Origin: Eledone cirrhosa
Taxonomy: Eukaryota
Reading direction: 5' to 3'
DNA: 34,005 nucleotides
NCBI GenBank assembly: GCA_964016885.1
Contig: CAXHJY010000906.1
Coordinates: forward strand, 1 to 34,005
Within the stretch, counting starts at the first letter, position 1. Every line of letters starts with the position of its first letter. Position numbers and translations under genes: made by a program. A model generated the notes under the pieces. The model had not been told where the DNA came from and searched no databases. It was given only the letters and a program-made list of their open reading frames with translations. Positions 2,501-32,727 of the stretch are shown here, piece after piece.

Positions 2501-5500
2501 GCGCGGGGACATAGAAATAATCGGGCTGGATGCCCGATCGCGCAGTTAAACCACTGGGAGTGAAGAACCCCTAGCCCTTGTCAGGGTATTCTTCTAGGAG
2601 AAGGCATCTCAGGAAACTGGGTTAACTCCGATATAAAACCTGCGGCTCAGTAGTTACCGATGATGTTGATCTTTTCTTCTTTTCGGGTTATAGCTACTGT
2701 CGCTCAGAGAGTGGGATTGGCTCAGTGCACAGTCTTTCCTCACTTTAAAAATATTCGTCACGCACAGTCATTGCACGAGTGCATTAATAATTATTAATAG
2801 TGTACTATTATTACTATTATTATTATTACTTTTTTTTTTTTTTTTTTTCCCTATTCAATGATGTTCCAGAACAATGTAAACGAGATAATTGCCAATTTAG
2901 GTTCTGGAACAAAAAAGATCATTGGCAATAAGGGCAGGGGCCCCAAGTTATCACAACCTGGGCCCGCCCGTCATCGTGCCATTGAAATAGAGCCAAACAG
3001 GGCATTTAGTCTTGGCTGCTGGAACGTACGGACGCTGCTTGACAGGGATTCTTTGGAGCGTCCTGAACGAAGGACCGCTCTTGTTGCAAAGGAGCTTCGA
3101 CGTTACGATCTTGACATCGTGGCTTTATCTGAGACGAGGTTAGCTGGAGATGGTCATCTTACGGAATTTTGTGGAGAATATACATTCTTCTGGAAAGGAA
3201 GAGATGAAGGAACCAGAAGAGAGGCTGGGGTAGGATTTGCTGTTAAGACTGTACTTGTGAATAAATTAGAAGAATTCCCAGTAGGGATTAGTGAGCGTCT
3301 TATGTCCATGAGAGTTTTGCTGGACAAGGGAAGATATGCTACCCTGGTGAGTGTGTATGCTCCAACTATGAATTCTGTCGATGAAGAAAAACTGTCCTTT
3401 TACCATGCCTTGAAAGGTGTTCTAAGAAATATCCCTCAGGCAGACAAAGTCATCGTGCTTGGTGACTTTAATGCTAGAGTGGGTAGGGATTTTAACACAT
3501 GGAATGTAATCGGAAGGCATGGGGTGGGAAAATGTAACAACAATAGTATTCTCCTGCCGCAGATGTGTGAGGAGCTGGATCTGTGTGTTACCAACACCAT
3601 GTTCCAACAAAAGAACAAATTCAAGACCACATGGATGCATCCTGCATCTAAGGAATGGCATCTTTTGGACTACGTCCTAGTCAGGATGTGCAGTGTGTTC
3701 GTGTTCTTCGTGGAGCTGAGTGAGTGCTGGACGGACCACCGCCTGGTACGCGCAAAAGTGAATCTAATCACCAAACGTAAAATCCGGGCTCCTGGTGTTA
3801 CCCTGCCCAAAAGATTGAATGCTGCTCGTCTTAAGGATAAAAATGTGAAGAGGACATTGGAAGAAGAGATGCAGGCTGCAGATCTTGATGAGGATTGGCC
3901 GACCCTTAAAAAGTCGGTTTATGATGTAGGCAGGCGTGTTCTGGGATTGGTGTAGAGAAAACATCAGGACTGGTTTAATGAGAATGATGTACATATAGAA
4001 GACTTGTTGGCTGATAAGAGGCGTGCTCTGTCACGCTACTTGATGGCAAAACCACAGGAGAGGAATACGTTGCATGAGGAGCTCAAGGATGTAAAATCAC
4101 GTGTTAGGCGGAGTCTTTCTCAGATGAAGGATCAGTGGTGGAGTGAGAAGGCTGGTGAGATACAAACTGCGTCTGATTGCAATAACACAAAGCTGTTGTA
4201 CAGTCTTTTGCGTGAGGTTTATGGACCGTCTTCTTCTCTGGTGACACCGATTCGCAGAAAGGATGGCAAAGAACTTCTTCGTGACTCACAGGGAATTCTG
4301 CGAAGGTGGCGAGAGCACTTTGATGATCTTTTGAATCAGCCGTCTGTCGTCAGTGAAGATTTCCTCAATCTCATTCCGGAAAGTCCTGTGAAAGTAGCTC
4401 TCGCAGAACCTCTGACGCTTGTGGAGGTTGCAGTGGCTATTTCGAAGCTGAACAGTGGAAGATCTCCAGGTATGGATGGCATACATGCTGAGCTCCTACA
4501 ATATGGTGGTGAGAGACTCCTGCAGCATCTTCACTCTTTGTTTGGAAGGATATGGGCTAATGAATCCGTGCCTGAGGACTGGAGAGATGCAGTAATGGTG
4601 GTCTTGTACAAAGGAAAGGGTAACAGGAATGATTGTGGGAACTACAGAGGTATATCATTGCTTTCTGTCGTAGGGAAAGTTTTATGTAGGGTGCTTCTGG
4701 ACCGTCTGCTGACACACATTGCAGATTGTGTTCTTCCTGAAAGTCAATCTGGTTTTCGTGCTGGACGCGGCACTACTGATATGATCTTCTCAGCTAGACA
4801 GCTCCAGGAGAAGTGCATTGAACAAGGCTTGGATCTGTATCAGGTTTTTGTCGATCTGACAAAGGCTTTCGATACTGTCAACAGAGATGCATTATGGAAG
4901 GTTCTCCAGAAACTTGGTTGCCCTGATAAGTTCCTTGCTTTAGTTAGGTCTTTCCATGACGACATGAAGGCTTGGGTTAATGTCGGAGGTAACATGTCGG
5001 AGCCTATCTCAGTAAAAAATGGAGTGAAACGGGGATATTCCAGCACCGACCCTGTTTGCCATATACTTTGCAATGGTTTTCTGTATTGCATTCAGGAATT
5101 GCGAGCATGGTGTTTACATCCGATATCGAACCTCAGGCAGCATATTTAACATCAGGCGCTTTGCTGCGAAGACAAAAGTATTTACATCAATCATAAGAGA
5201 CCTCTTGTATGCAGATGATTGCGATCTTGTAGCGCACACAGAGAGTGATATGCAGCACATTTTGAATGCATTTTCTGACGCTTGCACTGCCCTGGGTTTG
5301 ACTGTCAGTCTCAAGAAAACCGTCGTCATGTACCAACCTGCCCCTAGTAAGCAGTACACTGAACCAAACATCTATGTGTATGGCAAACGACTTGGAGTGG
5401 TTTATCAGTTTGTCTACCTGGGAAGCACTGCCAATCGATACGGCAACCTTGACAGTGAAATCTCACTTAGGATTAGGAAAGCAAATGATGCTTTCGGAAA

Positions 5501-6500
5501 GCTAGAAAGGCGACTCTGGGGTCGGCGAGATATATGCAGGAGGACAAAGGTAAAGGTGTACAGGGCATGTATACTCTCTTGTCTTCTTTATGCCTGCGAG
5601 ACCTGGGTCACATATCGACGCCACCTTAAGCAATTGGAGCGTTTCCATCAGATGTGTCTCAGACGGATCCATGGCGTTCACTGGAGGGACCACATCAGTG
5701 ATGTCGAGATTTTGGAAAGCTCTATGTGTGACAGTATAGAAGCTCTTGTGCTTAAGCAACGACTCCGTTGGAGTGGTCACCTTGCCAGGATGAAGGATTC
5801 TAGAATACCAAAACAACTCTTCTATGGAGAGTTGGTTAAAGGAAAACGACCGCCACATAAACCAAAAAAGAGGTATAAGGATTCCTTGAAAGCCTCTCTG
5901 AAAGACGCTAATATCTCTGCTGATACATGGGAAAATATTGCTGCTGATCGTAATAAATGGAGAAAGACTGTATATGAGGGAAAAGTTGCTTTTGAGGCAT
6001 CTCGAATCGCACACGAGAAAGTAAAGCGGGACGTGAGGAAGGGCATTGCTGTTGCACTTCCAGACGGCGAGGGTGCTCCTATGGTGCTGACATGCAGCGT
6101 CTGTGCGAGACTCTGCCTAAGCAAAGCTGGACTTGAAAGTCATCTTCGCAGTCATAAAGTAAGACCAGTGGTTGACTACCAAGCTGCTGTTGGAGATGCT
6201 ACTCATCATGCTTGCCAAACATGTGGTAGAGAATGTAAATCAGCAGGAGGGCTCAAGCGACATGCAAAAGTACACGAACTCCAACCACAGCCGACTATTC
6301 CCAGTGAATGTTTTGGTTGCCGACTCTGTGCAAGACATTTTAGATCATTGGCTGGGCTAAAAAGCCACATTCGATCGCAGCACTGTTTGTTGCTATCGTG
6401 TGTGTGTGTGTGTAGATATGCTTATGTGCGTGCGTGTGTGTGTATATATATATATGAATATGTATATCATTATTGTTGTTGTCGTTATTATTATTGTTGC

Positions 6501-6534
<34 letters not shown>

Positions 6535-6576
6535 GTTATTAGTGTGTGTGTGTGTGTATGTATATATGTATGTATG

Positions 6577-20864: not shown

Positions 20865-21482
20865 TTAGCTGTATACTTTGTGAAATGTTTTATGGAATTT
20901 ATGCAAGCAGATAGAAAACAAGTCAGTGCGTCTATTTATGATAGAATCTAGATTAGAGATAATGGTAATTTTTTCATTTAGACAGAGATTGCAGATTTTG
21001 GATAGAGAACTGTTCAAGTATGGAGACGCAGAAGAAACCTTCTTCCAAAAGATGTTATATTTAATATTTTTGTCTTTCAAGGACCATATGAGTTCTGAGA
21101 GAGCCGTGTTGGTTCTTTTAAGTTTGTATTTAAAAGACGAATGATGGTTATAAAGACGAGCTTTAAAAGAGGTGGAAGTGGAGCCAAAATAGGTGAAGGA
21201 ATTGGTGTCAGTTATAACTTTACATTCGTAAATTAAGTTTTTATCAAGACAATGGTTGTTGAGAGGACATTTATTTTTAATAGGGCAATTGCAATTAGAG
21301 AGATTATTAATGAGTGACCTAGTGTTATCTATAGAAGGAATTGGAGTGGAGAAGTTGTTTGCGATCGGAATAATAGTTTCTTGATTTAGAATGGGATTAT
21401 GAACATTTAGCGAAGTTGGGTTTGTAGAAATTAGCCTAGGGTTTACAATGACGTCGGGAGTACTATTATTATGAAATTCAGT
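20865..21482 (-). pseudogene. Penelope-type GIY-YIG endonuclease C-terminal fragment (no start codon)
   Basis: Manual translation upstream of the listed 71-aa ORF: CNCPIKNKCPLNNHCLDKNLIYECKVITDTNSFTYFGSTSTSFKARLYNHHSSF...ALSELIWSLK...CNLCLNEK...NRRTDLFSICLH. Confidence 0.9.
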
Positions 21483-21512
21483 GTTGTACTACAATAAAAC
21501 TCACCTCCTACA

Positions 21513-22836: not shown

Positions 22837-22879
22837 ATATTGCTGATGAGATGTAATAACATCGAAACTAGTCCAATAT
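22837..22879 (+). ncRNA. Minimal type I hammerhead ribozyme (family B, copy 1)
   Basis: ATATTG-CTGATGA-GATGT/AATA/ACATC-GAAA-CTAG-TC-CAATAT; predicted GUC cleavage after 22873; stem I extends to 22809-22901. Confidence 0.92.
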
Positions 22880-23306: not shown

Positions 23307-23349
23307 ATATTGCTGATGAGATGTAATAACATCGAAACTAGTCCAATAT
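23307..23349 (+). ncRNA. Minimal type I hammerhead ribozyme (family B, copy 2)
   Basis: Identical to copy 1, 470 bp downstream; predicted cleavage after 23343. Confidence 0.92.
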
Positions 23350-30831: not shown

Positions 30832-31153
30832 TTATACTTTGGGAGGGTCATGTTGCTTTCCAGTTGCTTTCACTTCAATTTATTATATATTTATAAATTT
30901 ACAAATCTACAAATTTATAAATTTCTGGTTGGTTGGTTGGTTCCACAACCAGATAGTTGTTTATATAACCAGAAATTTATAAACTTGTAGATTTGTAAAT
31001 TTATAAATTTATAAATATATAATAAATTGAAGTGAAAGCAACTGGTGCGTGTTTTTCCTATTGGCAACATGACCCTCCCAAAGTATAACAATATCGGTTT
31101 CAACACACGATTTCCTCCCAAAGTATAACAATATCGGTTTCAACACACGATTT
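30832..31153. repeat. Inverted repeat (30832-30930 / 30967-31088) plus 40-bp tandem duplication (31074-31153)
   Basis: TTATACTTTGGGAGGGTCATGTTGC...CCAGTTGCTTTCACTTCAAT is mirrored by ATTGAAGTGAAAGCAACTGG...GCAACATGACCCTCCCAAAGTATAA. Confidence 0.88.
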
Positions 31154-31430
31154 CAGATAAAGAATCTTGCTAAACAAATTCAGAAACGATATATATACAT
31201 ATATATACATATATATATATATACATATATATACATATATATACATATATATATATACATATATACATACATATATATATATACATATATATTAGAAAGT
31301 GAGGTTTTTTTTTACAAAATGAAAAATAACCGAGGTGTCCTACACGAGTGAAAGTATAAAGAAAAAGAGATGAAATCGAAAATGCAACTGAAGTCTTATT
31401 TTTTAAAAAAATATATATATTTATTTGGTT

Positions 31431-31468
31431 CCTTTACCGGTTTCGCAGTTCTTCTGCTTTTCAAAAGG
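31431..31468 (-). ncRNA. Hammerhead motif with U3-A8 variant core (family C, inverted copy)
   Basis: Exact reverse complement of 31544-31581. Confidence 0.65.
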
Positions 31469-31543
31469 TGAGTTGAGATGGAAGGTCTGTGGTTTTTCTC
31501 ACATCTGATGTGAGAAAAACCACAGACCCTCCATCTCAACTCA

Positions 31544-31581
31544 CCTTTTGAAAAGCAGAAGAACTGCGAAACCGGTAAAGG
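31544..31581 (+). ncRNA. Hammerhead motif with U3-A8 variant core (family C)
   Basis: CCTT-TTGAAAA-GCAG/AAGAA/CTGC-GAAA-CCGG-TA-AAGG. Confidence 0.65.
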
Positions 31582-31657
31582 AACCAAATAAATATATATA
31601 TATTTTTTTTAAATAAGACTTCAGTTGCATTTTCGATTTCATCTCTTTTTCTTATAC

Positions 31658-32389
<732 letters not shown>

Positions 32390-32427
32390 TTAGAGAAGAT
32401 GATAGTATGGGTTTCTAGTAGACAGTC

Positions 32428-32727
32428 TCTAACTGCTTCAAAACTAGATACAATTCGCACCTCCACTCTATCAAAAAACACAGTCTAGCCAACTCCACTT
32501 CACTATCTAGCTACATACACTATCTAAAAACTAAAAATAAACCATATACACTTAAATGGGAAGTGATAGGTAATGCGACATCGTACAAACCACCTAATAA
32601 ATTTTGTAACCTCTGTCTACTAGAGACCCATACTATCATCTTCTCTAACCATAAGAAATCAGAAGTGGTCGCGTCTTGCCAACACCGCTTCCGACACTCT
32701 TTCCAAAACTTTAAACCCAATATATAA
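32428..32727 (+). pseudogene. Second Penelope-type GIY-YIG C-terminal fragment (not in ORF track)
   Basis: Manual translation [99 protein letters not shown], colinear with 20865-21180. Preceded by a 41-bp inverted copy (32385-32425) of 32613-32653. Confidence 0.85.

What the first reader, a model, noticed from the sequence alone, without database searches (positions are those of the whole stretch)
31354..31657. Hammerhead with covariant U3-A8 catalytic core duplicated in a 300-bp palindrome
Seen: stem I CCTT/AAGG, stem II GCAG/CTGC and GAAA-CCGG-TA are all in canonical register, but the core reads UUGAAAA instead of CUGANGA. Known: positions 3 and 8 form a tertiary Watson-Crick pair, and U3-A8 is a rare compensatory variant that can retain activity. 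Inference: the two changes hit exactly the paired positions, suggesting a functional variant family that CUGANGA pattern searches would miss.
Basis: partly seen in the sequence, partly recalled or inferred. Interest (0 to 1): 0.75.

Follow-up and report, generated by a model that had tools for sequence, protein, structure and literature searches.

The report
U-A core hammerhead in Penelope stub
This 300-base palindrome is two short head-to-head pieces of a very abundant Penelope-type jumping gene; its hammerhead RNA motif carries an already published U-A core swap shared by over 11,000 genomic copies, and a small excess of copies that start at the predicted cut site suggests the motif likely cuts now and then, though this copy is predicted to be inert.

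Summary
Both arms of a 96%-identical palindrome (31354-31505 / 31507-31657) hold a type I hammerhead with core UUGAAAA (U3, A8). The variant is the family norm: 11,039 matches in two subfamilies, no C3-G8 copy of this family, and sister families (RT/EN 39-57% identical) keep U3-A8 while stems I and II covary. The parent is a Neptune-like Penelope element (RT plus C-terminal GIY-YIG). The palindrome is its usual inverted 5'-truncated end in (TA)n. U3-A8 hammerheads in Penelope elements, and opposite-strand pairs, are published (PMC4209133). A read-through RNA of this copy is predicted to be one long hairpin, so inert. Extras measured here: 163 copies start at or next to the predicted cut site, against 13 and 9 at two control sites. 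5' ends pile up 69-73 nt upstream of the cut, 30 nt below a TATA box. 22 of 22 palindromes pair one long with one short 3' end. Cleavage is untested and no RNA run was listed. The scan noted the same kind of motif and footprint on other DNA before. Verdict: new member of a known kind.

The parts
31292..31506 (-). Main arm: 5'-truncated end (pLTR) of a Penelope-like element, from the 5' pile-up point (-73/-72 relative to the cut) to the long 3' end (+148)
   Evidence: Matches both pLTRs of the full-length copy L032; ends mapped
31507..31653 (+). Inverted arm: second truncated pLTR copy, from -71 to the short 3' end (+76 here, +80 in most copies); pairing with the main arm continues to 31657 in TA-like bases
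31431..31468 (-). Type I hammerhead motif, U3 at 31464, A8 at 31459, predicted cut between 31435 and 31434
   Evidence: Sequence, descriptor scans; cut position from the standard hammerhead numbering (inferred)
31544..31581 (+). Type I hammerhead motif, U3 at 31548, A8 at 31553, palindromic stem III ACCGGT at 31571-31576, predicted cut between 31577 and 31578
   Evidence: Sequence; covariation across sister families
31292..31353 (-). 3' tail present on one arm only; the family's two 3' ends lie 68 nt apart
   Evidence: (loose ends at L032:7502 and 7570)
31190..31291 (.). (TA)n-type microsatellite flank, left
31653..32388 (.). (TA)n-type microsatellite flank, right

Best explanation
The palindrome is a two-armed, 5'-truncated insertion of a Neptune-like Penelope retroelement in a TA microsatellite, and its U3-A8 hammerhead is that element's family-wide motif, likely a weakly active ribozyme in the element's own RNA and predicted to be inert in this copy. 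Shown: family membership, fixed U3-A8, stem covariation across sister families, two discrete 3' ends, a 5'-end pile-up. Inferred: the RNA starts about 72 nt upstream of the cut from a TATA promoter in the pLTR. The element's protein would nick both target strands and start reverse transcription at two internal sites (+148 and +80), copy back to the RNA's 5' end, and the two cDNAs would join head to head. Inferred: the hammerhead folds as a dimer through ACCGGU, possibly with protein help, and cuts only a small share of templates. About 1.5% of copies (163 against at least 11,039 intact) look like copies of cut RNA.
For: Parent element: L032 has pLTR-ORF-pLTR with hammerheads about 4.9 kb apart. 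L031's ORF matches RVT_1 (E 5e-7) and GIY-YIG (E 7.6e-5). Core: 6,267 matches with positions 3, 7 and 8 free, first 100 listed all TTGAAAA. With N7 fixed as A, 17 differ at position 3 (9 are C) and 8 differ at position 8 (2 are G). 0 have C3-G8. A second subfamily has 4,772 matches, 99 of 100 listed U3/A8. Covariation on 18 motifs: 90.6% of 159 cells paired against 75.9% shuffled (0 of 500 shuffles as high), 6 of 9 pairs changed on both sides, 28-45% paired when slid. 5' ends: 38 of 92 arms at -69 to -73 and 0 at -74 to -82, TATAAAA at -102. 22 of 22 head-to-head pairs are long plus short. 14 of 15 scorable pairs share diagnostic bases, against 4.8 shuffled. Cut-site starts: 163 against 13 and 9. 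Dimer fold -21.1 kcal/mol against -0.4 for a monomer with stem III closed; stem II closing pair P 3e-18 in the palindrome against 0.49 in one arm. Literature: PMC4209133, PMC8557442, PMC11167929.
Against: No cleavage assay. The motif alone is not unusually stable (26 of 200 shuffles fold as well), and the best-scoring dimer fold (-22.5) is not the active one. Stem I is weak: in the 4,772-copy subfamily it has only 3 pairs, and its two outer pairs fail in 6 of 18 rows each. U3/A8 invariance in alignment A1 is forced by the search pattern, and related rows inflate the covariation test. The cut-site excess has only upstream controls, and 15 of 30 inspected loci are inverted junctions beside an A/T-rich tract where later deletions could pile up. 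PMC11167929 found no RNA reads at the cut site of an anole element and no need for cleavage in vitro. The clade call rests on motifs, not a tree. The TATA/start-site reading has no RNA support.
Confidence: 0.85

Rival explanations
1. The motif is conserved as a folded RNA signal (protein binding or packaging) but no longer cuts. The 163 starts at the cut site come from the reverse transcriptase stalling at the GC-rich CCGG duplex, or from microhomology and later deletions beside the A/T tract.
For: About 98.5% of the counted copies include sequence upstream of the cut, so uncut RNA is the main template. A stall at the foot of a dimer stem III would fall within 1 nt of the cut. PMC4209133 reports low in vitro activity for minimal Penelope hammerheads.
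Against: 74 of the first 100 listed junctions lack the native TA before AAGG (hand count), so TA microhomology alone does not explain them. The TA control gave 9 copies, about 21 if scaled to all copies. Positions just 3' of the stem II hairpin gave 13. The U2.1-A1.1 pair next to the cut is kept in 18 of 18 rows without being in the search pattern.
Confidence: 0.3
2. The palindrome forms by fold-back (self-priming) of one cDNA at the RNA's 5' end, not by two separate priming events.
For: The arms share diagnostic bases in 14 of 15 pairs. PMC3846280 reads such junction palindromes as self-priming.
Against: In 6 of 22 pairs the short-tailed arm reaches more than 2 nt further 5' than the long-tailed arm (7 the other way, 9 ties), which a copy of the long arm cannot do unless the apex was deleted later. 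The short end also occurs alone in 15 of 48 unpaired arms.
Confidence: 0.35
3. The palindrome is a separate non-autonomous, MITE-like element with its own working double hammerhead.
For: The exact 144-nt cut-to-cut spacing of the window recurs in other loci (3 of the 22 pairs).
Against: Centres vary from locus to locus (cut-to-cut spacing 82-920 nt in 22 pairs), the arms match the parent pLTR, the promoter-like TATA is missing from this copy, and the hairpin (-242.7 kcal/mol) is predicted to bury both motifs.
Confidence: 0.05

Closest known systems
U3-A8 minimal hammerheads in pLTRs of Cercyon Penelope-like elements of Schistosoma mansoni (Cervera and De la Pena 2014, PMC4209133; read: parts 1-2 of 4 and a term search of supplement file 2)
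   Same: Type I motif in a PLE pLTR, U3-A8 core (a supplement row starred as PLE-linked reads UUGAAAA), short stem I, G10.1-C11.1, palindromic stem III region, many solo copies, opposite-strand pairs 100-700 bp apart.
   Different: No extra base between A9 and G10.1, a 4-bp stem II and a CCGG insert in stem III. At least 11,039 near-identical copies against about 1,300 heterogeneous hits. A different element family.
Neptune-clade EN+ Penelope-like elements (Craig et al. 2021, PMC8557442; read: passages and two supplement alignment rows; PMC3846280 passages)
   Same: RT with DKG motif, CX2-5CxxC linker (CGRSNCGTC), C-terminal GIY-YIG with two inner cysteines, (TA)n targets, inverted 5'-truncated copy, tail on one end only.
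   Different: The tail is 68 nt, not 30-40. Neptune against Nematis was not settled by a tree.
PAc (Poseidon element of the green anole; Frangieh et al. 2024, PMC11167929; read: parts 1-2 of 4)
   Same: Two discrete 3' ends that match the idea of two internal RT start sites; uncut RNA as the main template.
   Different: PAc has a C3-G8 core overlapping the ORF start, and no RNA reads at its cut site were found. Here the ATG lies 170 nt downstream of the cut, and genomic copies are in excess at the cut.
Natural U3-A8 hammerhead cores (Perreault et al. 2011, PMC3088659; read: passages)
   Same: Same covariation of the 3-8 pair; the paper says such ribozymes had been shown active in vitro (citing Przybilski and Hammann 2007, which I could not read).
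   Different: The passages read do not tie those examples to Penelope elements or to the minimal, dimer-type architecture.

Membership tests
Type I hammerhead ribozyme | Core U4 G5 A6 N7 A9, G12 A13 A14, A15.1-U16.1, H17 | tested here: met
   H17 = A. N7 and H17 vary among sister families.
Type I hammerhead ribozyme | Watson-Crick pair between positions 3 and 8 | tested here: met
   U3-A8 in about 99.6% of 6,267 matches (copies that also changed N7 were not covered). The literal CUGANGA consensus is not met.
Type I hammerhead ribozyme | Stems I and II supported by covariation | tested here: met
   3 of 4 pairs in each stem change on both sides; stem II 97% paired, stem I 82%. The rows are related and were hand-picked.
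Type I hammerhead ribozyme | Match to an Rfam hammerhead model at gathering score | tested here: not met
   0 matches in the window; the four canonical-core motifs elsewhere in the window were missed too.
Type I hammerhead ribozyme | Self-cleavage 3' of H17 | not testable with these tools
   Indirect only: 163 copies start at or next to the site, against 13 and 9 at controls.
Minimal PLE hammerhead | Palindromic stem III that allows a dimer | tested here: met
   ACCGGU self-duplex -8.3 kcal/mol; dimer fold -21.1. Prediction only.
Minimal PLE hammerhead | Extra unpaired base between positions 9 and 10.1 | tested here: not met
   A9 is followed directly by G10.1 in 18 of 18 rows.
EN+ Penelope-like element | RT followed by a C-terminal GIY-YIG endonuclease | tested here: met
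   on L031 and L032.
EN+ Penelope-like element | pLTRs (direct or inverted) holding the hammerhead, optional tail | tested here: met
   L032 direct; L031 and L033 inverted, 4.2 kb apart; 22 of 22 pairs have the tail on one arm.
Neptune clade | CX2-5CxxC linker, cysteines inside GIY-YIG, DKG motif, (TA)n targets | tested here: met
   Read from the L031 translation and compared by eye with Neptune rows; not Hydra (DKT, CxCX5C) or Naiad (N-terminal EN).
Neptune clade | Placement in an RT phylogeny (Neptune against Nematis) | not tested
   No reference RT set was on hand as tool-given sequence.

The most novel reading that the evidence does not exclude
The genome keeps a fossil record of this element's RNA life cycle: copies start at a capped 5' end 30 nt below a TATA box, palindromes arise from two priming events on one RNA at two fixed sites, and about 1.5% of copies come from RNA that a U3-A8 hammerhead had cut. 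That would be in vivo evidence that a non-canonical, dimer-type Penelope hammerhead cleaves.
Probability: 0.5. Interest if true: 0.5.

Novelty: new member of a known kind. Interest (0 to 1): 0.28.

Why it matters
The motif class and the U3-A8 swap are known, so the finding as flagged is ordinary. Practically, CUGANGA-only scans miss over 11,000 motifs and several families in this one genome. The role of hammerheads in Penelope elements is still open (PMC8557442, PMC11167929). A young, very high-copy family with sharp 5' and 3' ends and an excess at the cut site offers a direct way to test whether they cut in vivo and how inverted ends form.

Tried and rejected
Rfam scan: 0 hits. RNA evidence: no RNA holder listed; runs X1, X4 and X5 are contigs of unknown kind and served only to show the two 3' ends and the second subfamily. 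Canonical C3-G8 relative with the same CCGG stem III: 3 matches, none passing the stem descriptor; the reversed control of that loose pattern gave 139, so it has background. Insertion into GGTA|AAGG as the cause of cut-site starts: the two loci with a distant upstream hammerhead (L098, L109) hold separate complete copies; 3 more (L107, L110, L111) are tandem jumps after an intact copy. Przybilski and Hammann 2007 and a 2017 RNA Biology paper on PLE hammerhead dimers were not held; nothing rests on them beyond Perreault's citation. Paper searches: hammerhead ribozyme + Penelope + C3U + G8A, 3 of 4 terms, gave 0; U3-A8 gave 1 paper; two searches listed nothing on genomic copies starting at PLE cut sites or on twin priming in PLEs (listings only). 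Supplement file 1 of PMC4209133 was not searchable and figures were not seen, so this family or host may be listed there. MITE reading rejected (see rivals). The host organism was not identified.

Full report
Observation. The motif is as described. On the plus strand, CCTT TTGAAAA GCAG AAGAA CTGC GAAA CCGG T A AAGG lies at 31544-31581, and its mirror lies on the minus strand at 31468-31431. The arms 31354-31505 and 31507-31657 match at 146 of 152 columns. The unit sits between (TA)n tracts, and the left arm runs on to about 31292. Rfam finds nothing at gathering score and the 55-nt motif folds no better than shuffles, so the case rests on comparison.

Is U3-A8 the family state? Yes. A pattern with positions 3, 7 and 8 free gives 6,267 matches in G000 (reversed control 0), and the first 100 listed are all TTGAAAA. 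With N7 fixed as A, 17 copies differ at position 3 (9 C, 5 G, 3 A) and 8 differ at position 8 (2 G, 3 C, 3 T), a scatter that fits decay after insertion. The C3-G8 version of this family has 0 matches. A second subfamily, with ACTT in place of CCTT in stem I, adds 4,772 matches, of which 99 of 100 listed are U3/A8. The total is at least 11,039.

Sister families. A U3/A8 pattern that excludes this family's second stem II base gave 615 matches; about four in ten of the 100 listed are other families by my hand count. The same search with C3/G8 gave 3, none passing my stem descriptor. Four sister loci (L056, L075, L079, L080) lie beside RT or endonuclease remnants 39-57% identical to this family's protein. 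I aligned 18 distinct motifs picked by eye, leaving out duplicates, most decayed copies of the main family, L070 and the three C3/G8 hits. 90.6% of 159 cells pair, against 75.9% in shuffles (0 of 500 as high) and 28-45% when slid; 6 of 9 pairs change on both sides. U3, A8 and the CCGG segment were fixed by the pattern, so their invariance is no evidence; the stem pairing and the invariant U2.1-A1.1 pair were not fixed. Related rows inflate this test. C3-G8 hammerheads with other stem III palindromes occur in the same genome, and no mixed 3/8 core appeared among 102 descriptor hits (10 C-G, 92 U-A) in loci chosen mostly for U3-A8. So the 3-8 pair differs between lineages, not within this family.

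Parent element. L032 holds two hammerhead pLTRs about 4.9 kb apart around an ORF broken into three open stretches. L031 and L033 are truncated copies with an inverted pLTR 4.2 kb away. [quoted passage not shown] The DKG motif, the CGRSNCGTC linker and the cysteines inside GIY-YIG fit Neptune or Nematis as defined in PMC8557442, and by eye resemble the Neptune rows of its supplement. No tree was made.

Why a palindrome. I mapped both ends in 70 loci taken largely in list order; 69 yielded 92 arms. 3' ends fall at +148 (50 arms) or +80 (31 arms) from the predicted cut, and contigs of other runs show the same two ends 68 nt apart. All 22 head-to-head pairs join one long to one short end. 5' ends: 38 at -69 to -73, 20 at -57 to -68, 4 nearer the core, none at -74 to -82, 10 at -83 to -200 and 20 beyond. 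TATAAAA starts at -102, 30 nt above the A at -72, and is absent from the window copy. I infer that the pile-up is the RNA's 5' end. A splice acceptor (CAG|ATG) is less likely, because many arms keep the AG or CAG and no common upstream exon is seen. The arms of a pair share diagnostic bases in 14 of 15 scorable pairs (4.8 expected), so they come from one parent. In 6 of 22 pairs the short arm reaches further 5' than the long one, which favours two priming events over fold-back unless the apex was deleted later. This fits PMC11167929 (both strands nicked and extended, two internal start sites). Inverted 5' copies and one-sided tails are textbook PLE features.

Does it cut? Copies with eight A/T bases directly before GGAACC, that is starting within the 5 junction positions around the predicted cut, number 163. 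The same test 7 nt upstream, over 4 positions, gives 13. A TA-microhomology control in the second subfamily gives 9, about 21 when scaled. A similar test near the 5' pile-up gives 210. By hand count of the first 100, 62 fit an exact start at AAGG and 38 are 1-2 nt shorter; only 26 keep the native TA. Of 30 loci read by eye, 9 join host or (TA)n DNA, 15 are inverted junctions, 4 are jumps within or after an intact copy, and 2 join ORF sequence. A null of TA microhomology plus background predicts about 34, so the excess is about fivefold. RT stalling at the CCGG duplex and deletions beside the A/T tract remain possible, and there is no downstream control. Most templates (about 98.5%) were uncut.

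This copy. A read-through RNA folds into one hairpin (-242.7 kcal/mol). The stem II closing pair has probability 3e-18 in it, against 0.49 in a single arm. The two motifs face away from each other on opposite strands, so one transcript carries only one in sense. It is predicted to be inert.

What is known. PMC4209133 reports U3-A8 hammerheads in S. mansoni PLEs (about 1,300 hits), opposite-strand pairs and low in vitro activity of minimal motifs. PMC3088659 reports natural U3-A8 cores and cites activity in vitro. Earlier notes of this scan describe the same variant, stub palindromes, 5' pile-ups and cut-site footprints on other DNA. I had reached the family reading; the 5'-end analysis was prompted partly by note e1-7908143. 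Verdict: real, a new member of a known kind, interest 0.28. The junction statistics are the part worth a test.

Noticed in passing
window 22839-22878 and 23309-23348 (+): Two identical C3-G8 hammerheads (stem II GATG/CATC, stem III ACTAGT) 470 nt apart in a tandem unit, retrozyme-like. Stem II and flanks resemble the U3-A8 sister families, so this may be their canonical counterpart.
   Followed up: partly
window 1212 (+) and 19713 (-): A third hammerhead-like family with canonical core, long stem II and a TGCGCA palindrome; also seen as an inverted pair in L028.
   Followed up: no
window 30832-31189: Another inverted-repeat stub in (TA)n next to the finding; longer copies in L028 and L030 carry a CTGAAGA...GAAA hammerhead-like motif that this copy lacks.
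   Followed up: no
window 31402-31420 and 31592-31610: The T-run/A-run boundary of the tract just 3' of the hammerhead differs between the two arms in most palindromes, while its length stays nearly constant; a possible template-switch hot spot.
   Followed up: partly
window 20865-21488 (-) and 32422-32727 (+); L031:7173-9000: Remnants that look like GIY-YIG endonuclease or RT ends of other Penelope-like families (by eye; no Pfam hit for the two window pieces).
   Followed up: partly
window 2801-6542 (+): A nearly complete LINE-type ORF (endonuclease, RT, C-terminal zinc-finger-like motifs by eye) in three frames.
   Followed up: no
L117 and L124: Copies that start at the predicted cut site are joined to ORF-internal sequence of the same element, which suggests template jumps from a cut RNA end.
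   Followed up: partly
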